From Paecilomyces variotii (Eukaryota), in the NCBI GenBank assembly GCA_004022145.1, contig RCNU01000004.1: 64,000 nucleotides of DNA. One strand, given 5' to 3'. A program made the translations under genes and the position numbers. The notes beneath the pieces are model-generated. The model worked only from the letters and a program-made list of their open reading frames with translations. It searched no databases and was not told where the DNA came from. Shown here one piece after another: positions 4,053 through 17,984 of the stretch. Numbering within the stretch: position 1 is the stretch's first letter; every line of letters begins with the position of its first letter.

Positions 4053-5967
<1,915 letters not shown>

Positions 5968-6166
5968 GGATCTACAAAAGTACATCTTCTTTTTGCGGTA
6001 TCAATGTACAAATGGGATATGTAGTCTGGATCATAATTCTCGACGGGATGTCACACAAAAAGGAGACAACGGCATTGGGTATCATTTCCATGGATCAGTG
6101 AACTATCTAGAAGCAAAAAGGTGTGTTCCGGTAGGAATAGAATCTCTCTGAACTGTTCGATAGAAG

Positions 6167-7320
6167 CTAGGACTTAAGTGGTTCTCTGGCATCTCTTCTG
6201 TCTCTCAAAGTGTCTCTGTGCCGATCTATGGAGTGTTCACGGTCGCGGGCATGGCTTCGAGACTTATGTTCATCGCGATGACTTCGGGAGCGCGAATGTC
6301 TCGATTTCCGTTCAGGTGATCTCTCATGGCGGTGATGATGCCGATGGCGATTATGATGACGGTGTGAATGTGTCCTTCTGTGCTTCTGGTCTCTCTCTCC
6401 GTCCAAGGTTGCATCTAGGCTGAACCCGTCTAGACTGTCAACGGATCTAGACCGAGACCTAGGTCTCCTTCTCCTTTCCCTTTTCTCTTCTTCTCTCTTT
6501 AGTAACTCCAGCTCGCGGATCCTCTCCTCTTGCCATTTCTTTCTTTCACGCTCCACCTCCTTCAATTGACGAACACCCTTCTTCATCGCAGCCAATGGAT
6601 CGTTTGCGTCCACACGAGCCTTCTCTCGCTCTCTCCTCCTAGGATCTTCGTTGCCCCAGACGTCCTTATCAGGCATGCTATCCGGTGCTACAGCCTCCTT
6701 CCATGACGACGAGTACCACGGATTCCGGCCCACAGACTCCTTGAACCCAGCTGCGTTGGAGAACCGCATCGTATACTGGTCTTCGAACTCGCGCTTCTTT
6801 TTTGAAGCTTCCGCTTCGGCCTCCGCATTCTTCTCTGCAGGCTTCTTCCCCGTTGCCTTCTCCGGAAAGAGATTGATATGACCAGCGTTATCGACTAGTG
6901 GAGCGTCACCGGAGGAGAATCCCAACAGCTCCTCCCGCTTCGCAAGGGCCAAGGCCGCATCCTCTTTAGCGTATCTGATATCGCGATCTGTGTCGTTCTC
7001 TCCAGCTATACGTCTCCTCTTTCTGTATCTGTTGGCTTCGTCGCCCTGTCTTCTATCGCGCTTATCTGCGGCAGGTTCAGATGGCGGGGGAGGCGGGGTT
7101 GACGGTCGCTCGCCACGAAGGATCTGGATGCGCCGCTCAGCATCTATCTCCTGCATCCGCCGCTCTTCCTCCTCCTCCTGTGCCTTGGCTTGCGCTTCAT
7201 CCCGTCGCACTCGGGCTATGTTCTCTGCGTTGTAGACGTTCCATGATTTCTTTCCGAGGAGATGCCTGAAGCTGTCAGCATAGCTTGCGAAGAGTCCGGG
7301 ATAGAAGCTTACAGAGGCAT
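6167..7320 (-). CDS. Cir_N (CBF1-interacting corepressor N-terminal domain) protein, LENG1-like, with an R/S/H-rich tail
   Basis: An 8-nt first exon ATGCCTCT (7320-7313) and a 47-nt GT-AG intron give MPLHLLGKKSWNVYNAENIARVRRDEAQA, the Cir_N signature; basic RS/His-rich C-terminus. Confidence 0.85.
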
Positions 7321-7888
7321 CTGGAAAAAAAACAAAGTAGATATGCAAAAGTGGCGAGTATTAGAGAGCCGTAACCAATAGGTCTACACACACAGACTGG
7401 ATGAAACGCAAAGTAGCACTGTGAGAGCATCAAGACAGATATCTGATCAACGTGCTCCGTCGAGGAAGCTAAGCTCCGCGGTGGAGAGGTTCGGCGGCGA
7501 ACGACCCCCGCGAATCGGCGTGGCTGAAACCGGAGCTGCGGTAGTTAAAGTCGACGCTGCGACTCCATCGAGTTTCATTCTGACCACCTCTTGCTTCTTA
7601 CTTCATACACGTTCCTTCACTCTTCTCCCGCCTGTTACAAAGCTGGAGGGCTCCATACCTTTTCGTCTGAATCAGCAGGATTGCTGATTTCCTTGATCGC
7701 AACGGAATTTGGCTGCCTGGACGGCTAGCCATACTGTTGAGCTTACCTAGGTCGATTCTCCATCCGCCTCCGCATTTCACGTTTCGGCTTGGACGGCAAC
7801 ACGATAGATATTTGGGAATAGACAGGAATCCTTTCTGCGTCTTTTCTCACTCCGCAGACAAATACACATCCCGATACCTCAGGCGACA

Positions 7889-10498
7889 ATGTTTAACCGC
7901 AACAACTTTCCATTCGGTGGCCGGCCAGACGCCGGTCGCGCTCCCCCGCAGAACCCTTACGGACAGGCGCCTGGGGACGCACGATATGAACCGGTTCCGA
8001 GAGGGTATGGAGCTTCGCCTCGTCCAAATGGTTATGATACAGTGATGACTGACGTTCACGGTGATTCAAGAGGATATGGGGCTCCGCAACCTCCCGCAGC
8101 AAGACAGCTGCCAGCGCGCCCACCTGTTGGCAGGCCACAGAGCGGCGCAGTTTGGACGCTGCGGCCAGCTAAGAGCCCGGATAATACATATACCTTTGGG
8201 AACTTGTAAGTTTTCCTTGTCGAAGATCATCTGGAGAAGACCGCAGCTGATAGTGGTATAGAGTGGCCGTTTCCGCACAGGAGTTTCCTCCCTCCCGAGA
8301 TGGTAGTGACCTTTTGCTGCTCGTCAACGACCTCTACGTCTTTTCTGCGCGCCCGCTCGATGGGTTTCCGCCTGGACAGATTAGTATGTCCGATCCACAG
8401 CGCACATGGGCTGGGGTCGCTTTCACGGACACCGTCAAGGTGCAGTTGTACGACCCTTTCAGCCAAGGCGGGCAGGCCTACCTTGGCTCGACCGATATTG
8501 AAGTTGGGTTCGCTGGAAAGAAGAGAGTCGAGACTCCATACGACCAGGATGAGTTGGCAAGCGTTGTGATCAAGGTATGTCTCCGTTAGATCTTACCGTC
8601 AAAGGGCGCGCTACTGACTGTTGTAGAACTTTGAAAACCAAATATTCGCTCCCGGCCAGAAGATCCTGATGGATCACAAGAGCATACCTCTTATACTGAC
8701 CGTGAAGACGGTCCAGCTGATGGATTTGACAGCTGAAAAGCCCGGTACTTCGAATGCCGCCGTGACCACTGAACCTACAGCACGGGGAATCCTTACACGC
8801 CATACTCTAATTAATTTCTTCAAGGATGCTAGGACTGGTATAAACTTGAAAGCTTCCAACCGGAGACCGGCAGCGAACTCCATCATTCAGCCGGACTTCA
8901 AGTTTGAGGATATGGGTATTGGTGGTCTGGATTCCGAATTCAGTACCATCTTCCGTCGTGCATTTGCCTCTCGTATCTTCCCCCCGGGCCTAATCGAAAA
9001 ACTGGGCATTCAGCATGTCAAGGGTATCCTGCTATACGGGCCTCCCGGAACTGGTAAAACATTGATTGCTCGTCAAATCGGAAAGATGTTGAACGCTCGG
9101 GAACCTAAGGTGATCAACGGTCCTGAAGTGCTCAACAAGTATGTCGGTCAGTCGGAGGAGAACATCAGAAAGCTCTTCGCAGATGCAGAAAAAGAATACA
9201 AGGAGAAAGGCGATGAGAGTGGATTGCACATCATCATCTTTGATGAACTTGATGCTGTCTGCAAGCAGCGAGGCAGCGGAGCAGGCGGTGGTACGGGAGT
9301 TGGTGACAGCGTGGTGAACCAGCTGCTTTCCAAGCTCGATGGTGTCGATCAGCTCAACAACATTCTTCTTATTGGTATGACCAACAGGATGGATATGATT
9401 GATGATGCTCTGCTGCGTCCTGGCCGTCTCGAAGTACACATGGAGATCTCCCTTCCAGATGAGAAGGGTCGAGTCCAGATCTTGAAGATTCACACTCAGA
9501 GGATGAGAACTAACAATGTGATGGACTCGGATGTCGATCTCGAGGAGTTGGCACATCTGACGAAGAACTTCTCTGGTGCTGAAATTGGTGGTCTTGTGAA
9601 GTCTGCGTCTTCGTTCGCTTTCAGCAGACATGTTAAGGTCGGTACGATGGCTGGTATCAGCGACGACATCGTCAATATGAAGGTGAATCGAGCCGATTTC
9701 CTCCATGCTCTTGACGAAGTCAAGCCAGCATTCGGTGTCTCCGAGGAGGAGCTTGCGACGTGCATCCAGTATGGCATTATTCATTTCTCGCCAACCATCA
9801 ATGAGATCCTGAAGGAAGGACAACTGTTCGTGAAGCAAGTGAGCCAGGCCAAGTCCACCCCTCTGTTCTCTGTGTTATTGCACGGCCCTCCGGCCAGTGG
9901 AAAGACAGCACTGGCGGCGAAGATTGCTCTGGACTCTGGCTTTCCTTTCATCAAGCTCATCAGTCCCGAGGACATGGTCGGCTTTAGTGAAGGTGCCAAG
10001 GTTCAGCATATCAGTAAGGTGTTCAATGACGCCTACAAGAGTCCTACTAGTGTCGTCGTCGTGGACAACATTGAGAGGATTATTGATTGGGTTCCCATTG
10101 GCCCTCGCTTCAGCAATACGGTCTTGCAAACAGTCATGGTATTCTTGAGGAAGCAGCCTGCCAAGGGACGTCGCCTCTTGATCCTAGCCACCACTACAGA
10201 ACGTGCGGTACTGAAGCAGCTTGACCTTTACAATTCGTTCAACTCTGATATTATGGTCCCCACCGTCAACACCCCCGACGAGCTGAAATATGTCCTCGAA
10301 CAGTCTGGATCTTTCAACCCTCAGGAAGTGCAACAATCCATCGAAGGGATCGCTGGCATTTCCGAAGAGACTAGGATCGGAGTCGGTGTCAAGCGGGTAC
10401 TGCTCGGTATCGAGACGGCCAAGCAGGATCCAGACAAGGTGGGACGTTTTACTCGCGTTATCACCCGGGCTATTGATGAGGAGAATATGTTTCAATAA
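7889..10498 (+). CDS. sec18: Vesicle-fusing AAA ATPase Sec18/NSF (2 introns)
   Basis: MGIGGLDSEFSTIFRRAFASR, Walker A GPPGTGKT, Walker B IIFDELDA, second AAA module GPPASGKT, DWVPIGPRFSN; N-domain split by two short introns. Confidence 0.97.
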
Positions 10499-10912
10499 AT
10501 GTATATACGTGTGACAGTGTTCTGTGGCTATGATGCATGATATATCAGTGTGATATAGTTTCTAATATCTTTCCCTCCCATCTTTTGGAGTAACAGGGGA
10601 GGAGAAGCCAGGTTGTTAAGATACGCCTTTAATGTATGCAGTGTGATCTGTGAGTTAGATAGATATTTTACTTATCAGCACGTGACTTTTACCGATAAGA
10701 ATTACAGATTATTAGTCTGTATTGTTCATCCAAATTAAAGTAGAGAAACACACTAGGGGGTTTTCTTATTAGACAACGTCCCTATAGACATAACCATCAC
10801 ACATTTAAACATCTAGCTTACGGTTCTGTTCATTATTATTTATCTCTGTTTATGCTGCCTCCTTTTAGGTATACAATTACATATCCACGCTCTACGCACA
10901 AACTTAGACATC

Positions 10913-11849
10913 ATGGATGACAATCCGGATGATTCTATTGTCGCCGCGGCAATGGGCTTCTCTTCATTTGGAACAAAACCGCAGAAGAATAACACGTCTG
11001 AGTTAGGGACATATAAGGGTATGACCAGTTTTCCGTCTTCTGAAACCAAAACAACTGCACCTCTCACACAGCATCTCCAGATACCAAGAAACGCACAATC
11101 GAAGACATGTCTCCTGCATCTCATTCTACTATTACTGGTGGTGTTGCTGAAGGTCCGTTTGATCATATTTACTTCTTCCTTGAGCCTGTTTTCGATATCG
11201 GCACTGGTGCCAGTCCTGATGTCTATTATCTCTCTTTCTCCCCTGCCCTGCTTGCCCTCCATAGACGCATCTTGACTACCTGGGGGAACCCTACGATGTC
11301 TCCTCGTGCTCGTCGATACTCAGACAGCTCCTATTTCCCTATTCTACGGGTTAATGAGGACTGCGATACCATGGCCGAGATACTCGAGGGAAACCATCTG
11401 ACCATGCCTGAAGAGCTCGACATCTCTGACATGAAAAAAGAACCCCAACCCAACGAGGAAACACCCATAGGCACTCAGAGCCACAGCGAAGTCACTCCCG
11501 ATAAGCATACTGGAAAGAAAGCCAAGAAAACCAAGAGATCCAAGTTCGAGGGCGAGGCTGGTATTGAAGGGCCCTCTGCTGACGGTTAGACTTCCAACTC
11601 AGCCATCACACTTCCGTCTTAGCTACATTGACTGAGTCGCTAAAATCCTGCTCTCTCATCCATATAGGCAACTACAACGACAACGAGAAGGGAAACTTCT
11701 ATGAAACTCCCAGCGGAACCGTCCTCTCTCCGGGGGAACTTCGTCGTCTGGCCGCTGGCGTGAAGAATGAGAATGGAGACACCGTTTTCTTCCGACCCAG
11801 CTTCATTGAAGACCCTTGGGCTGGCCTCAAGCCTGTTAGGATACAGTAG
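10913..11849 (+). CDS. Conserved hypothetical protein (~266 aa) with an N-terminal MGFSSFG motif and a C-terminal MPLKIP/TTDN1-like motif
   Basis: Exons 10913-11018, 11072-11584 and 11668-11849 join in frame through GT-AG introns; begins MDDNPDDSIVAAAMGFSSFGTK and ends VFFRPSFIEDPWAGLKPVRIQ. Confidence 0.7.
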
Positions 11850-12409
11850 GCGGGGGAAAAGTGAGTCTCTACCATAATCCTCATCTCACGCGTTGAGGAC
11901 ATGACGCGTTACAGAACATACAGGAGCACTTGCTACTTGGTACATTCGATTAACGTTACTGACGAATCCTGCGTTTATAGATACGCCTCTGGTTTGATGA
12001 CACTTTGGGGATCTCGTTCCTTTCTACGCTGTATTGTTATTTGGTTTTGTTTTACTTAATTTTTCCTTTTTTTTTTTTTCTCTTATCTTTGGGTCTTTGG
12101 GCCTTACAAGACCCATGATACTCGCTTGTCCTGTATTTTAGATCGGTGCCTAGTGCACCTTGGGCCTCTCTCGCCCAGTATGCATCGCTCTGGGGAATGA
12201 ATTTGTCTACAGCTTGTATCATCAATGTGAGCTAATAATCCGGATTCGCAAGATCAATCAAGTTGGCAGCGTTTCAGAACGATATATGAAGAAAGGCGAT
12301 AATGTAATATCGGCTATGCCTGTAAAATTCTAACGATGCTATACATAGTTAACAAGCCCAGAACAGACCCCAACTCCCATGCCCAATATGAACCGTATAA
12401 GAAGAAGAA

Positions 12410-13633
12410 TCATGCAAACCAACCATCCGTGCTAGGGTGACAATTAGTACACCCGAAAATGATGGGGATATCATCATAAACCCAAATACGCTCTATATCA
12501 TGTGGTACAGCACGCCTTGTGGTCAATTCGTGCTTCGCAACGTCAAACCAAGTATCTCTTATAGGTTGATGTTCACTCCCATTCAATGCACCCTTAAAGA
12601 CCAGAGAACTCCTTTCATCCCGCGCGTTCTTCATCAAGTCATTTTCGAAATTCTGCATGAAATATTTCCGTTGTGCTCGTTGGCTTCCCCCGTCGCCGAT
12701 CTCTGCTGAAAGATACTCCAAGATCCGTACGAATGGCGAGAATGTCAGCAAGGAACCAATCCAGCTGTCGTCGGATGTGCCTTGCTCTTCGGGAGGCACG
12801 GTGTTCCGCAAGATTGAAACCAAGAGCTGCATGCAATGATGGGTTGATATAAGTGTAGGTGTGTCTGTGAAAGGCGGCGATTGTAATATCTTGAACTGCA
12901 GTTCTCGGTACATAGTCTTCCGTACATCAGGTGGTATGGGAACCGGTAGTCGTCCTGCTTCGAATTCTTGCAGGAGGATATTCTTGTGTTCTTGTCGAGA
13001 ACGGGCGTATGTTTCTAGGAAATAAAGTACACAATACCTGCAGCCGTTGAATTCGCGCATTAGCCTGGTTCCCTGACAGTCTCAACCTGGGGTAGTTAGG
13101 TAGCCTTACATGAGTGGGGTAAGGTTAAACCACAAGCTTGCGACACCTCGCTTGGAAAACTCCTGGCGCTCGCTCTTCAATGGAAATCTGAGCTTGACGA
13201 ACGCTGGCTCACGATGCAGGAACCCGTTCATCACAAGATTCGCAATATACCAGCACAGCCTTGAGCACCATTTCTGCCGCCGGCGCAGACTATGCAAGTA
13301 TCTGAAAGTATAAAGATGGCCGCCTTTCGCACTCTTCGCCGGCGGGAAGAGGTCAGACAGCAGCATCACATCATCTTCTGGATTTCGAGTGTAGGTGCGC
13401 TCATTATCGATCGGCGAGGGAAGGGTTCCATGTCTGCGCTGGCGGAGATATTGTCGAGCGATAGAATGCTCATGTGCAGTGAGGACCTCGTAGAAAGCGC
13501 GGCAGACAAGCCTCAGGGGCAACAGGTCTTGAACACTGCATTGGGCGAATATCTTTATCTGGATCTCTACCGGAAGAAGATCCCAAGGCGAAGACGTAGG
13601 GGTGGAATGCACTTTGCTCGCGCTGCAGTTCAT
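12410..13633 (-). CDS. F-box domain protein (1 intron)
   Basis: N-terminal F-box (WDLLPVEIQIKIFAQCSVQDLLPLRLVCRAFY); the intron GTAAGG...CTGCAG joins the two ORF-track pieces in frame (PLM-YCVLYF). Confidence 0.85.
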
Positions 13634-14285
13634 TTGTCAATTAGCACCGGTAGATCAATACACTAACAGCTGAGCTGCTGCTGCGGTACCATAGTAGTTA
13701 ATACATACCTCGCTGGCGCGTTCGGTCTGGGCGACTTGTCGTCCCCTCTCCTGCCTCTGTCGACGGAAAAGCGGAATTTCTTGACCTGGCTCTGGAGAAC
13801 GGATATCATCGCGGACCGGCCAACTGCATGGGGAGGCCAGCTCCAGCATCAAGTCCAGCATTTAAGAACGGAGAAAGCGCCGCGGTTTTGACTTCTGGCC
13901 ACACGCAGCGCCAAGTGGGATAAGCAAGTGACTAAGCCCGCCGGCGATCATCGGTTTGGGGATTGTCTCATATCACAGCCACGCACCGGCATATCGTAGA
14001 GGATTCTGAAGTAGCAGCTCTTCCAGCCCGTTCTCAGGCATCGGCAATCTTTCTGGTCGACATCTCGCACGTTCGCCTGCATATGCGGCAGACTTGAACT
14101 GTGTAGTGCTGTCGGGCTTCGACGAGTATCCGCCCTGGCTTTCTGTCGATACCGCGGGTTCACCTGCGACTCCTGGAACAGTTTCTGGACAAGCGAGGCC
14201 GAATCATTCACGCATGGATATGCAAATGAAGAAAGGCGAAATGTGGTCGCACTGTCCCTTGTACATACGAACTGTGTTAAGGGTG

Positions 14286-14309
14286 GAGTCGAGTCGAGTC
14301 GAGTCGAGT
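14286..14309. repeat. (GAGTC)~5 pentanucleotide microsatellite
   Basis: gagtcgagtcgagtcgagtcgagt read directly. Confidence 0.85.
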
Positions 14310-15316
14310 GTATCTTCCGTGACCCGCTGCCGCCACGACGACGCAGAAAAGGACCCTGAGGCCAATGTAGCGAGTTCAATTCCGCGAATTGGATACTATG
14401 AGGATGTTATGAAGAACCGGCTGATTCCATATGTCTCTGTCTTGCATGACAAATCATCACGCTCAGAGGATAATAATAGGGCTGCGATCAACTCTTCAAA
14501 ACTCATACCAAGAGATAGCCGTGCTTCTGTCCCGGCACCTGGGAGACTTACAGTGTAAGTACAAATGGAAGCCTTTGTATATTGACAAGTGTGTTGGCTT
14601 CTTCCTTGCGATTATATATAGCAGTCGCTTATACCAGCAGTAATCTATGGACTAGCGTAAGCCACGAGGTACGTGAAAGGGTCCTATTTATACTTGTTAC
14701 CCATGCTTACTCTAGATAGTAGCTCAAAGATGTACTGGAGGAGACACTCCATGCTTCTTCCGAATCTGAAAATGAAGAACCCGCGCTGTCCGATCAGGCA
14801 CATGGTCCTGAAACTTGACGAATTGTTACTCAAATATCCTGCATTGGAAATACAATGAATCATCACCAATTATATTCGTGATAAGAAAATGGCCAGGTTC
14901 TCGAATGGTTTTCGGGTTTGTTGACTCCTCCCGCTTCGTAATCACAATAAACCCCGTATATATACATATAGGAATATCACACCTTGGCAGCACACGTCAG
15001 TTATTTACTGCCTCTCAGCGTTTCATAACATCTCAGCCGACCTCGTGTTTGACCCAAGTGCACCGGACATGTGCCATCTCTGGGGTAGAACAGCTTCCAA
15101 ATCGGGAGGACCGAACTGTATGCTTGATCACCGTATATTTGCTGAAAAGAGCACTCGAAGCAATCGAGGTGGGATATTATTTATCACTGAAATTTGCCAT
15201 CATTACCTCTCCTGGGCTTTTTTATCTTCAGCAGGGAACCGCCTTGAATTCAGTTGTTTGCTGCATGTGACAGATGCGTCAACTATATAGATCTGTCTTC
15301 GAGATCTACTGCGACG

Positions 15317-15982
15317 TTACGCATTTGACACCGTTTTCGACGGAACACCTCCCCTCCTCCCCAGAAAAACGAATAACTTCCCCATCTCTGGCCTTTCTTC
15401 TCTCCCAATAGCCTGCACGCCAAGCGTATCTCCATAGAATCTTTCATTCTTGCCTTCTTCTGCCACCAGCATCACTCTCCTCATATACGGCATATTGCTC
15501 CCGGATAGAGTCTCTGCAATGCAGTCGATGAGCCAGGAACCCAGTCCGCAGGACTGATACGCAGGTAGGATATAGACGTCCGCCAAATAGGCAAACGTGA
15601 TGGTATCGGTGATGAGACGAGCAAACCCCACTTGTTCAACGGATTCGGTATCTATAGATAGATTTTCGCCGCTTAGCTGGGAATTATTCCGACTTGCATC
15701 ACTCTCTTCGATGTCGACTTTATGTTCGTTATCTCGCAGGCGCGAGGGACGTTTGTAAACTCCAAAGCAGAGTGACCCCGCTAAGATCTGTTTCAGGACT
15801 TCTTCGGGGAAGGGTTTCGCCCAGTAGAGAAACTCCATGGAGAAGGCATCATTAATTGCCTTTGCTGATAGGAATTTTGGATCTGTTGAGATGAAGAAGT
15901 CATTGTCATTCACCTCTTGAGAGTTTGTCTCATGTTTTCTTCTCCATGTGCGGGGCGGGACGAGGGAAGAAGGTGGGAGCAT
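15317..15982 (-). CDS. GNAT family N-acetyltransferase (intronless)
   Basis: FISTDP...QVGFARLITDTITFAYLADVYILPAYQSCGLGSWL, including the acetyl-CoA binding Q/RxxGxG motif. Confidence 0.88.
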   Translation of the reverse strand: MLPPSSLVPPRTWRRKHETNSQEVNDNDFFISTDPKFLSAKAINDAFSMEFLYWAKPFPEEVLKQILAGSLCFGVYKRPSRLRDNEHKVDIEESDASRNNSQLSGENLSIDTESVEQVGFARLITDTITFAYLADVYILPAYQSCGLGSWLIDCIAETLSGSNMPYMRRVMLVAEEGKNERFYGDTLGVQAIGREERPEMGKLFVFLGRRGGVPSKTVSNA

Positions 15983-16347
15983 CGTTCTCGGTTATAATGG
16001 CTGCAAAATGTCTGCTCGCGACGGACGGTTTCTGAAATAGGTTTATTTGCAGTATATGAGTTGAATGTAAGGTTGGTTTGTATTGTTGAGTCTCATAGCA
16101 CTGCGCGGGCGGGGCTATAAAAGGTTACTGGAGGTGCCAGCTCAGCGTGCGCTACTATTCGATTATTCTGTGGAACATGGGCAAGATGTCCCACGATGCT
16201 CAAGGCTGGTATTATTTGCAGTTTACAGAAAGGAGCATTCTTGTGTTCATTACGCATTAAGTGGTATTGATACTGACTGACATGCAGACTTAAGAACCGA
16301 CAGGACAACCCGGATATAGACATAATAACAGCCTCAAAAGAGGCTTT

Positions 16348-17334
16348 TCAATTTCCGCCTTGCTTCGTAAGGACTCCAGTTGGTGCCAGATCAAGCTCCA
16401 CAGGACCGAAATACTCTTTGAAGGCATCCGATAGTGTCTCTTCAGTCAAGTGCATATGCTCGCCCGGAAGAGTCTTGAACTCCAGCTTCCCCTCCTCGTC
16501 CAACACCTTCAATCCTAGCCAATCTTCTTTATACAACTCTCTTTCCTTCAATGGTGTGACCTCCCCAGAAGTCATGTTGACTTCGGCGAACCAGGCGCTC
16601 TCCTTCGGAACAGCAGTCTGATCGTTCTCGAACATGAACATTGCAAACCGATTCAGCGACATCAGATTCTTCTTGTAGGTCACGTTCTTCAGGGCACGCT
16701 CGTTGTTCACGTCTGCCAGAAAGTTGCTATGCTCTAGGTACAAATCCAGCTCCGCTGGGTCACGGAAGTATTGTGCAGGCACCAGGCGCGACTGAACGAA
16801 ATCTGTCCACGTTCCGGACCGCAACAGAGCCTCCGCACCGCGGCAAACCCAATCGCCAGCACTGGCGCATGATTGGAACTTCGAGATGCCGTTGTGCTGG
16901 CTCCCAAAGGTGACAAGGTTGCGGACCGGCGGGAAGTTACAACGTTCGACGTAGGCGCGCAGGAACTGTCCACCTTGGGAGAATCCCATGGCGTTGATAG
17001 CGGGTGCAGTGCTCAAGATCGGCTCTGATGCCAACTGCGCGCAGACATCCTCTACCTGCTCAGTGAGGTTGCCAAAGAAGGTTGCCTGGCGGTCCGCGGA
17101 AGCAGAGTCCGCCAACTTGATGATATGCACGTAGGTCCCCGGGTTAACCTCTTCAGCCAGGGCAGCGACCTCGCGAAGCCCTTCGCGAGCATAGTCATCA
17201 CCTAGGCCGTGCCATATCACCAACGGGAGAGGCGTAAGCTCCTTCTCTGCGGGACGAAAAGACACAGACGTCGGAAGTGCGGCGGAGATGGCGGATAGCA
17301 CAAGCGACCCGACCGTGAAAGGTAAGACAAGCAT
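16348..17334 (-). CDS. ppt1: Palmitoyl-protein thioesterase 1 (secreted/vacuolar)
   Basis: Signal peptide; PLVIWHGLGD, nucleophile motif GFSQGGQFLRAY, VPAQYFRDP, FLADVNNE, VPKESAWF, GEHM. Confidence 0.92.
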   Translation of the reverse strand: MLVLPFTVGSLVLSAISAALPTSVSFRPAEKELTPLPLVIWHGLGDDYAREGLREVAALAEEVNPGTYVHIIKLADSASADRQATFFGNLTEQVEDVCAQLASEPILSTAPAINAMGFSQGGQFLRAYVERCNFPPVRNLVTFGSQHNGISKFQSCASAGDWVCRGAEALLRSGTWTDFVQSRLVPAQYFRDPAELDLYLEHSNFLADVNNERALKNVTYKKNLMSLNRFAMFMFENDQTAVPKESAWFAEVNMTSGEVTPLKERELYKEDWLGLKVLDEEGKLEFKTLPGEHMHLTEETLSDAFKEYFGPVELDLAPTGVLTKQGGN

Positions 17335-17984
17335 CGTTCCTCAGTATCTCCCAAATAATAGTTAGTCCCTATTTATCGTCAGCTCCTTTTGATATTTGAT
17401 AAAGCAGCAGCTGGGACTGCTCGGAGACGTGGGCTTGTTGATGGAGCAGACGGATGCAGGTTGGGGATGTGATCGCCGTTCTTGGCATCGGCAGTTCAGA
17501 TCCACATCGGATCGACATCCGTCATGGGAAACATGACGCTCTTTGATGAAGAACATTGATAATTGATAGCCAAGATCCCCTCCCTCCTCGCTTCATTGCT
17601 CCGGTATGATAACCTGACGGGCAGTGTTACTCCCTATCGCAACTTCCCCTCTGACTTTGGCTTTGCGGGCAAGGGAGTCTATCTCGGATATGCCGGGGTA
17701 TGTACAAGAGCGATATTAGCTGCCAACTGCGGAGCAGCGGTATCACGATAGTTCGATGCAGACAACCCCTGCTCGTCTTATGTAGATAGCCACGGCCGCG
17801 AGCTTTCTATGAGCTCAAGTACATTCAGGATCCGCGCTGTCTGTCGATTCTGACGCGATTACTTGATTATTGACCAATGCTTTCAGATGACGCGTCAGTT
17901 AGACTCTCTGCTAACTGTCGTGCCGCTCGTCTTCAGCTACCCAAGAGTTTGGGCTTCTACTGATCCGAAAGCTGCTCAACAAAG

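What the first reader, a model, noticed from the sequence alone, without database searches (positions are those of the whole stretch)
10913..11849. Candidate fungal TTDN1/MPLKIP/SICKLE-like adaptor for lariat debranching
Seen: the spliced protein ends in FFRPSFIEDPWAGLKPV (about 11787-11837) and carries AAAMGFSSFG near its N-terminus, with an unrecognised middle region. Recalled knowledge: human MPLKIP/TTDN1 has a C-terminal YFKPSMLEDPWAGLEPV-type motif, shared with plant SICKLE; both proteins bind the debranching enzyme DBR1. MGFxxF motifs occur in spliceosome-associated proteins such as SNRNP27. Inference: this hypothetical gene may be an unrecognised adaptor that tethers Dbr1 to the fungal spliceosome through two short linear motifs.
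Basis: partly seen in the sequence, partly recalled or inferred. Interest (0 to 1): 0.78.

Follow-up and report, generated by a model that had tools for sequence, protein, structure and literature searches.

The report
Fungal two-motif TTDN1/SICKLE-like protein
This mould gene encodes a small, mostly disordered protein whose tail carries the short motif that human TTDN1 and plant SICKLE use to hold the intron-debranching enzyme Dbr1, and whose head carries a motif also found in three human spliceosome proteins, so it is a plausible but untested fungal Dbr1 tether.

Summary
The gene (10913-11849, + strand) is the annotated 263-aa hypothetical protein of Paecilomyces variotii. It carries AAAMGFSSFG at residues 11-20 and FFRPSFIEDPWAGLKPV near the C-terminus. 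RNA contigs confirm the introns.

The tail matches Pfam MPLKIP (E 3e-5, 24.5 bits), which is below the curated cut-off of 28.9. An exhaustive profile search found 263 relatives. Of the 153 sequences examined, 98 carry both motifs in the same order. All named members are Pezizomycotina and are annotated hypothetical.

A profile of that family gave three matches in the Protein Data Bank, all through the head motif and all spliceosomal: ZMAT2 (E 2.5e-5), WDR70 (E 0.003) and SNRNP27 (E 0.18).

New here: an RNA contig removes an in-frame 288-nt segment (11153-11440). This would give a 167-aa isoform without the "unrecognised middle region", which is specific to the Paecilomyces lineage.

The MPLKIP motif in fungal proteins is already noted in InterPro and in a 2023 preprint. 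The two-motif architecture and any fungal function were not found in print. Dbr1 binding is inferred only, because no Dbr1 sequence could be obtained for modelling. The scan had no earlier finding on this.

Verdict: new variant of a known kind, with moderate interest.

The parts
10780..10912 (+). 5' UTR (at least from 10780), holding an out-of-frame upstream ORF of 22 codons that starts at 10852 and overlaps the main ATG
   Evidence: RNA contig record 5 of run X4 starts at 10780. The uORF was found by script.
10913..11018 (+). Exon 1 coding part. It encodes MDDNPDDSIVAAAMGFSSFG..., the N-terminal MGFxxFG motif (10943-10972).
   Evidence: Family profile match to the ZMAT2, WDR70 and SNRNP27 motifs. 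Pfam SNRNP27 is weak, E 0.064.
11019..11080 (+). Intron 1, 62 nt, GTATGA...CAG
   Evidence: Joint 11017>11080 in X4 record 5, GT..AG. Splice sites read. Agrees with the deposited model P0003.
11081..11152 (+). Exon 2a: basic stretch DTKKRT... up to ...GGVAE
11153..11440 (+). In-frame 288-nt segment, alternatively removed (exitron-like), GTCCGT...AAG.
   Evidence: Joint 11149>11438 (cut +3, GT..AG) in X4 record 5. X4 records 6 and 7 lie inside it unspliced. The frame is open and conserved in 5 Paecilomyces sequences. The HIYFF motif is also in P0008 and P0026.
11441..11584 (+). Exon 2b: acidic and basic low-complexity linker (EPQPNEE...KKAKKTKRSKFEGE...SAD)
11585..11667 (+). Intron, 83 nt, GTTAGA...TAG
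   Evidence: Joint 11583>11667 in X4 record 9. Splice sites.
11668..11849 (+). Last coding exon, with the conserved C-terminal module (about residues 211-257) that ends in FFRPSFIEDPWAGLKPV (11787-11837). Stop at 11847-11849.
   Evidence: Pfam MPLKIP E 3.1e-5, HMM positions 23-39 of 64. Family conservation. AlphaFold2 block-mean pLDDT of 72-87 for residues 211-250 with the 98-sequence alignment.
11861..11980 (+). 3' UTR intron, 120 nt, GTGAGT...TAG, starting 11 nt after the stop codon
   Evidence: Joint 11860>11981 in X4 record 9, shorter side 30 letters. Splice sites.

Best explanation
The gene encodes a small, largely disordered nuclear protein of a Pezizomycotina-wide family built from two terminal recognition modules.

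The C-terminal module ends in the MPLKIP core (P-S-F-I-E-D-P-W). This is the motif through which human TTDN1/MPLKIP and Arabidopsis SICKLE bind the lariat-debranching enzyme Dbr1. I infer that it binds the fungal Dbr1 in the same way.

The N-terminal module (D-P-x-I-A-A-A-M-G-F-S-S-F-G, followed in most members by a KKRK-type basic cluster) is a short linear motif. It is shared with the C-terminus of ZMAT2/Snu23, the N-terminus of WDR70 and the conserved domain of SNRNP27K. I infer that it docks the protein on the spliceosome, so that Dbr1 is brought to excised lariats.

In P. variotii an in-frame 288-nt segment can be spliced out. That would give a 167-aa isoform matching the usual size of the family, alongside a 263-aa isoform with a lineage-specific 96-aa insert.

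Shown: the gene, its splicing, both motifs, and their joint conservation. Inferred: both binding partners and the tethering function.
For: - Gene and splicing.
- Pfam MPLKIP on the tail: E 3.1e-5 for exon 3 and E 1.6e-4 for the whole protein. It matches 89 of the 98 two-motif relatives at E<=0.01.
- The exhaustive profile search found 263 proteins at E<=0.001. Of the 153 sequences examined (the 150 listed plus P0003-P0005), 98 have [ML]GF..F upstream of [ED]D(D)PW, and 10 more have the N motif with a variant C motif. The two-motif proteins are 111-329 aa, median 177.
- Positions not used to select those 98 are also conserved: A11 in 87, G20 in 95, L228 in 89, G234 in 97, G240 in 98, D241 in 90, F245 in 92, P247 in 92, S248 in 89, all of 98.
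- The profile of the 98 gave three PDB matches at E<=10, all spliceosomal and all through the N motif: ZMAT2 E 2.5e-5, WDR70 E 0.0032, SNRNP27 E 0.18.
- Literature: the TTDN1 C-terminal conserved region is necessary and sufficient for DBR1 binding, and E146/D147 are important (Townley preprint, section 7 read). Changing the SICKLE core S-M-A-E-D-P-W to alanines abolished DBR1 interaction in yeast two-hybrid, diminished co-immunoprecipitation, and abolished in vivo function (preprint passages). TTDN1 binds Dbr1 with Kd about 3 nM and raises catalytic efficiency 19-fold (JBC 2023, sections 8-9).
- AlphaFold2 with the family alignment gives confident structure only for the C-terminal module (block means 72-87 for residues 211-250). 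It also gives a short N-terminal helix at residues 7-13 (block means 69-72). This fits a disordered adaptor.
- Filamentous-fungal Dbr1 is long: FgDbr1 is 544 aa (passages).
Against: - This protein, and 37 of the 40 two-motif relatives scored individually, fall below Pfam's gathering score of 28.9 bits. Only 3 reach it.
- Only about 17 of the 64 HMM positions align.
- The Met mutated in patients (M144 in TTDN1) is Phe here.
- The window's own N-terminal exon gives no PDB match at E<=10. Its Pfam SNRNP27 match is E 0.064, which is not significant. The spliceosomal link therefore rests on the family profile.
- What the MGF motif binds in ZMAT2, WDR70 or SNRNP27K was not found in the papers I read.
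- The Aspergillus and Penicilliopsis relatives keep the C module but lack the MGF motif, so the N motif is not obligatory.
- Townley et al. state that TTDN1 conservation is restricted to metazoans.
- TTDN1 did not stimulate Entamoeba Dbr1.
- No binding, genetic or localisation data exist for any fungal member in what I searched.
Confidence: 0.55

Rival explanations
1. It is a Dbr1 cofactor but not a spliceosome tether. The C module binds Dbr1 and stabilises it, activates it or helps import it into the nucleus. The N-terminal motif with its basic cluster serves nuclear import or some other partner.
For: - TTDN1 alone raises Dbr1 catalytic efficiency in vitro without any spliceosome.
- A 2025 review (passages) reports that SICKLE promotes nuclear accumulation of DBR1.
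- Most family members have a KKRK-type cluster right after the N motif.
- Aspergillaceae relatives lack the MGF motif yet keep the C module.
Against: The three PDB matches of the family profile all come through the N motif and are all spliceosome components. That is hard to explain for a plain import signal.
Confidence: 0.25
2. The resemblance to MPLKIP is a short convergent or repurposed motif. The fungal family binds a partner other than Dbr1 and has an unrelated function.
For: - The match covers only about 17 residues and is below Pfam's curated cut-off for this protein and most relatives.
- The fungal module has its own conserved upstream part (L-x-x-L-R-x-G-V-R-N-E-x-G-D-x-V-Y-F) that does not align to the Pfam model.
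- No structure of any MPLKIP-motif complex was found by sequence in the PDB copy.
Against: - E-values down to 3.4e-10 for family members.
- The residues shown to matter in human and plant proteins (S, E, D, P, W) are the most conserved ones in the fungal family. D, P and W were part of my selection pattern; S (89 of 98) and E (95 of 98) were not fixed by it.
- The motif already binds Dbr1 in two kingdoms.
Confidence: 0.17
3. It is not a real protein-coding gene: a chance ORF or mis-joined exons.
For: The protein is annotated only as hypothetical. AlphaFold2 confidence is low over most of its length.
Against: Spliced RNA contigs with canonical GT..AG joints, hundreds of relatives with the same architecture, and an exact match to deposited proteins.
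Confidence: 0.01

Closest known systems
Human TTDN1 / MPLKIP (Pfam PF15502; trichothiodystrophy non-photosensitive 1)
   Same: A small, mostly disordered protein with the conserved ...P-S-x-x-E-D-P-W... motif close to the C-terminus. The Glu-Asp pair important for DBR1 binding is kept. Both have a modular layout of partner-binding N-part plus Dbr1-binding C-part.
   Different: - The human N-terminal disordered region binds the intron-binding complex/AQR (abstract; review passage). The fungal protein instead has an MGFxxFG motif.
- Met and Leu of the core are Phe and Ile.
- The fungal module has a family-specific 25-residue upstream extension.
- The score is below Pfam's cut-off.
- The function is untested.
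Arabidopsis SICKLE (SIC)
   Same: It shares only the MPLKIP core with an otherwise unrelated sequence. That core mediates DBR1 binding and is needed in vivo.
   Different: SICKLE is a 35-kDa proline-rich protein. It has no MGF motif, as far as the texts I read say.
MGFxxFG-type motif of ZMAT2/Snu23 (C-terminus), WDR70 (N-terminus) and SNRNP27K (start of the Pfam SNRNP27 domain)
   Same: The acidic/hydrophobic lead-in plus M-G-F-[ST]-x-F-[GD] aligns to the family's N motif. All three are human spliceosome components seen in cryo-EM entries.
   Different: These are otherwise unrelated proteins (zinc finger, WD40, RS-rich). The fungal protein lacks the rest of the SNRNP27 domain. What the motif contacts was not established here.
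Drn1 / CWF19L1 (Dbr1-binding cofactor in yeast and human)
   Same: A non-catalytic Dbr1 partner that promotes lariat turnover.
   Different: It is a folded protein that the papers read describe as homologous to Dbr1 but non-catalytic, not a motif-based adaptor. I saw no sequence relationship.

Membership tests
MPLKIP / TTDN1 / SICKLE motif family (Pfam PF15502, InterPro IPR028265) | Match to the PF15502 model at Pfam's gathering score (28.9 bits) | tested here: inconclusive
   Exon 3 scores 24.5 bits (E 3.1e-5) and the whole protein 22.2 bits (E 1.6e-4), which is significant but below the cut-off. Relatives P0009 (40.4), P0038 (30.2) and P0064 (28.9) reach it, 3 of 40 scored. They are linked to this protein by the profile search at E 1.7e-16 to 5.5e-8.
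MPLKIP / TTDN1 / SICKLE motif family (Pfam PF15502, InterPro IPR028265) | Core S-M-[L/A]-E-D-P-W, as given in the SICKLE preprint | tested here: met
   The sequence here is S-F-I-E-D-P-W: 5 of 7 identical, with hydrophobic replacements at the other two. In the 98-sequence family, S is in 89, F in 98, E in 95, and D, P and W in 98 each. D, P and W were fixed by my selection pattern.
MPLKIP / TTDN1 / SICKLE motif family (Pfam PF15502, InterPro IPR028265) | Acidic pair equivalent to TTDN1 E146/D147, which is needed for DBR1 binding | tested here: met
   E251 and D252 of P0003. The requirement is taken from the Townley preprint, section 7.
MPLKIP / TTDN1 / SICKLE motif family (Pfam PF15502, InterPro IPR028265) | Direct binding to the cognate Dbr1 | not testable with these tools
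   No whole genome is held for the window, and no tool route gave a fungal Dbr1 sequence.
MPLKIP / TTDN1 / SICKLE motif family (Pfam PF15502, InterPro IPR028265) | Loss of the protein causes lariat accumulation | not testable with these tools
   This needs a deletion mutant and lariat sequencing.
SNRNP27 (Pfam PF08648) | Full C-terminal SNRNP27 domain (56 positions, including the loop with Met141) at the gathering score of 23.1 bits | tested here: not met
   Exon 1 scores 13.8 bits (E 0.064) over profile positions 3-22 only. The best score among the 50 proteins scored individually (42 of them two-motif) is 21.6 bits. The protein shares a motif with SNRNP27 but is not a member of that family.

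The most novel reading that the evidence does not exclude
Pezizomycotina couple lariat debranching to the spliceosome with a minimal two-motif tether. An MGFxxFG docking motif, reused by ZMAT2/Snu23, WDR70 and SNRNP27K at different stages, would occupy one common spliceosomal pocket. The MPLKIP module would carry Dbr1. This would also define MGFxxFG as a general, so far undescribed spliceosome-docking motif. It would further show that the N-terminal 'address' of MPLKIP proteins is swapped between lineages: AQR-binding region in animals, Pro-rich in plants, MGF in most Pezizomycotina, EEW motifs in Aspergillaceae. In P. variotii an exitron would toggle a 96-aa HIYFF-containing insert between the two motifs.
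Probability: 0.3. Interest if true: 0.72.

Novelty: new variant of a known kind. Interest (0 to 1): 0.55.

Why it matters
TTDN1 and SICKLE were only recently shown to be Dbr1 partners. One of the founding papers states that TTDN1 is restricted to metazoans. A fungal family with the same Dbr1-binding core would make the mechanism testable in genetically easy filamentous fungi, where Dbr1 loss has strong phenotypes (Fusarium).

The fungal family has a different, spliceosome-type N-terminal motif. It would therefore show how the same Dbr1 handle is re-addressed in evolution. The recurrence of that motif in three human spliceosomal proteins also points to an undescribed docking site.

Most members score below Pfam's cut-off and are annotated as hypothetical, so the family is largely invisible to routine annotation.

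Tried and rejected
- Word-index search with the C-terminal 59 aa returned only the three Paecilomyces proteins, so it was too insensitive. The exhaustive search was needed.
- The own-genome search for Dbr1 failed because no genome is held. Modelling the complex with Dbr1 was therefore not possible, and complex prediction was not used.
- AlphaFold2 with the four Paecilomyces sequences gave mean pLDDT 33 and nothing interpretable.
- A fold search of the better model against 48,161 PDB representatives gave no match at Z>=2. This is uninformative for a mostly disordered model.
- Single-sequence PDB searches: the N exon gave nothing, and the C exon gave only chance-level hits at E about 1-2.
- The ESM Atlas gave only unnamed Ascomycota clusters scoring below 0.9, one of them with MPLKIP on 14% of members. 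This is a weak lead only.
- RNA runs X2, X3 and X5 gave unspliced contigs, one of 26,248 nt, from a diverged strain. They say nothing about splicing.
- Contig depths were not used to rank the two isoforms.
- Literature searches for a described motif shared by ZMAT2, WDR70 and SNRNP27 found nothing relevant. The eLife 2023 and Nature 2024 passages place SNRNP27K near the U6 ACAGA box and the tip of the PRP8 endonuclease domain, but do not say what the MGF segment contacts.
- Neighbouring genes give no functional clue.
- The minus-strand ORF 10843-11319 has no Pfam match.
- Earlier findings of this scan hold nothing on this gene or family.

Full report
**What is there**

The window comes from Paecilomyces variotii. 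The middle exon is 100% identical to P0003, a 263-aa 'hypothetical protein DTO280E4_3902'. The sequence has an ATG at 10913 and a TAG at 11847-11849. Joining 10913-11018, 11081-11584 and 11668-11849 translates exactly to P0003. AAAMGFSSFG is residues 11-20.

**RNA evidence**

Eighteen of the 24 listed public runs hold the stretch or part of it. I laid four metatranscriptome runs on it.

- Three of them (X2, X3, X5) gave only unspliced contigs of a diverged strain, one 26,248 nt long. These look like DNA and say nothing about splicing.
- In X4, contig record 5 has no mismatch over its first 308 letters. It joins 10780-11017 to 11080-11149 (intron 1, 62 nt, GT..AG) and then 11149 to 11438. That second joint removes 288 nt with GT..AG ends (GTCCGT...AAG). 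Its shorter side is 30 letters with one mismatch, and the same change is seen in the other X4 contigs at that position.
- Record 9 joins 11583 to 11667 (83-nt intron) and 11860 to 11981. The latter is a 120-nt GTGAGT..AG intron in the 3' UTR.
- Records 6 and 7 lie inside the 288-nt segment unspliced. The two constitutive introns have no cover in X4 and are bridged by contigs.

So exon 1 is joined to exon 2, and exon 2 to exon 3, on separate contigs. The 288-nt removal rests on one contig in one run.

The removal is in frame. It deletes residues G60-K155 (GPFDHIYFF...DISDMKK) and leaves an open 167-aa form. The segment is nonetheless coding. It is open and conserved in five Paecilomyces sequences of 56-91% identity. 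Its HIYFF motif recurs, twice each, in P0008 and in P0026 of Arachnomyces. I therefore read it as an alternatively spliced exonic segment ("exitron"), not a missed intron. Contig depths cannot rank the two forms.

**The C-terminal motif**

Pfam MPLKIP (PF15502) matches exon 3 at E 3.1e-5 and 24.5 bits, residues 40-56 against profile positions 23-39 of 64. It matches the whole protein at E 1.6e-4 and 22.2 bits. Both scores are under the curated cut-off of 28.9.

The literature supports this motif as a Dbr1 handle:
- The TTDN1 C-terminal conserved region is necessary and sufficient for DBR1 binding, with E146/D147 important and M144V having a modest effect (Townley preprint, section 7 read).
- Replacing S-M-A-E-D-P-W of SICKLE with alanines abolishes the DBR1 interaction in yeast two-hybrid, diminishes co-immunoprecipitation, and abolishes function in vivo (preprint passages).
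- TTDN1 binds Dbr1 with Kd about 3 nM and raises catalytic efficiency 19-fold, but does not stimulate Entamoeba Dbr1 (JBC 2023, sections 8-9).

Here the core reads S-F-I-E-D-P-W, with the acidic pair kept.

**The family**

A profile of four Paecilomyces proteins was searched without a word index against 1.84 billion representatives. It found 263 proteins at E<=0.001, and the best 150 were listed.

I examined 153 sequences (those 150 plus P0003-P0005) by pattern:
- 98 have [ML]GF..F upstream of [ED]D(D)PW.
- 10 have the N motif with a variant C motif.
- 33 have the C motif only.
- 12 match neither pattern. Most of these show variants such as PSFVTDPW.

The two-motif proteins are 111-329 aa, median 177, which is the size of the short isoform.

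Named members are Paracoccidioides, Polytolypa, Emmonsiellopsis, Arachnomyces, Phaeomoniella, many Dothideomycetes, lichen-forming Lecanoromycetes, and some Leotiomycetes and Sordariomycetes. All are annotated hypothetical or uncharacterised.

The family consensus is D-P-x-I-A-A-A-M-G-F-S-S-F-G-x-Q-x-x-K-K-R-K-F ... G-A-N-x-x-x-L-G-x-R ... L-x-A-L-R-x-G-V-R-N-E-x-G-D-x-V-Y-F-L-P-S-F-x-E-D-P-W-x-x-L. Positions that my selection pattern did not fix are also strongly conserved.

Pfam MPLKIP matches 89 of the 98 at E<=0.01, best 3.4e-10. However, only 3 of the 40 scored individually reach the gathering score. That explains why the family is mostly unannotated.

The Aspergillus and Penicilliopsis relatives keep the C module, with the same ...GLKPV... 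ending as Paecilomyces. In place of the MGF motif they have EYSxLEEW and SSSLFEEW motifs.

**The N-terminal motif**

The profile of the 98 gave exactly three PDB matches at E<=10, all through the N motif and all spliceosomal:
- the ZMAT2 C-terminus (E 2.5e-5)
- the WDR70 N-terminus (E 0.0032)
- SNRNP27 (E 0.18)

Pfam SNRNP27 matches 16 of the 98 at E<=0.01 but never reaches its cut-off. The window's own N exon alone gives no PDB match.

The papers I read place SNRNP27K at the U4 quasi-pseudoknot, the tip of the PRP8 endonuclease domain and near the U6 ACAGA box (passages). They do not say what the MGF segment touches. I found no paper describing a motif shared by these three proteins.

**Structure**

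With four sequences AlphaFold2 gives mean pLDDT 33. With the 98-sequence alignment the mean is 59. Only the C-terminal module is confident, with block means of 72-87 for residues 211-250, two short strand pairs and a helix at 225-232. There is also a short N-terminal helix at residues 7-13, with block means of 69-72. No fold match was found. This picture fits a disordered adaptor with two terminal recognition elements.

**Interpretation**

Membership in the MPLKIP-motif family is well supported at family level. Dbr1 binding is a reasonable inference from two kingdoms. Spliceosome docking through the N motif is a lead. None of the three is demonstrated for a fungus.

I could not model the Dbr1 complex. 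No genome is held for the window, and no tool gave a fungal Dbr1 sequence.

**Novelty**

[quoted passage not shown] The Townley preprint says that TTDN1 conservation is restricted to metazoans.

My searches found no study of a fungal member. The 2025 DBR1 review (passages) and the Fusarium Dbr1 paper (passages) name none either.

I did not find the following in print:
- the two-motif architecture
- the link to ZMAT2 and WDR70
- the lineage swap in Aspergillaceae
- the alternatively spliced insert

Noticed in passing
window 10852-10920: An upstream ORF of 22 codons (MLPPFRYT...), out of frame, lies within the transcribed 5' leader and overlaps the main ATG at 10913.
   Followed up: partly
window 11861-11980: A canonical 120-nt intron (GTGAGT...TAG) lies in the 3' UTR, starting 11 nt after the stop codon. 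It was seen as a joint in one RNA contig of run X4.
   Followed up: partly
window 11153-11440 versus 11454-11565: The diverged strain in runs X2 and X3 differs from the window at only 1 listed position inside the 288-nt alternatively spliced segment, but at 12 positions in the roughly 110 nt of linker just downstream. The insert is under tighter constraint than the linker. The same strain has a 13-nt deletion at 11879, inside the 3' UTR intron.
   Followed up: no
proteins P0028, P0080, P0099, P0107, P0113, P0145, P0151 (Aspergillus and Penicilliopsis for those looked up; P0151 was not looked up): The Aspergillaceae-type relatives keep the C-terminal MPLKIP module. They end ...DPWKG.KPV..C..RYW and carry EYSxLEEWAPQTL and SSSLFEEWKSQA motifs instead of the MGF motif. 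This suggests a swapped N-terminal partner.
   Followed up: partly
proteins P0008 and P0009: Two relatives carry the C-terminal motif twice. P0008 shows two FFKPSFIEDPW copies, and P0009 has two Pfam MPLKIP stretches.
   Followed up: no
window 4560-17340: Neighbouring genes by Pfam:
- arginine methyltransferase (4560-5964, +)
- Cir_N-domain protein (6170-7360, -), the same N-terminal domain as the CBF1-interacting co-repressor CIR
- NSF/Sec18-like double AAA ATPase (8627-10498, +)
- F-box protein (13109-13636, -)
- GNAT acetyltransferase (15320-15991, -)
- palmitoyl-protein thioesterase (16351-17340, -)
None is linked to the finding.
   Followed up: partly
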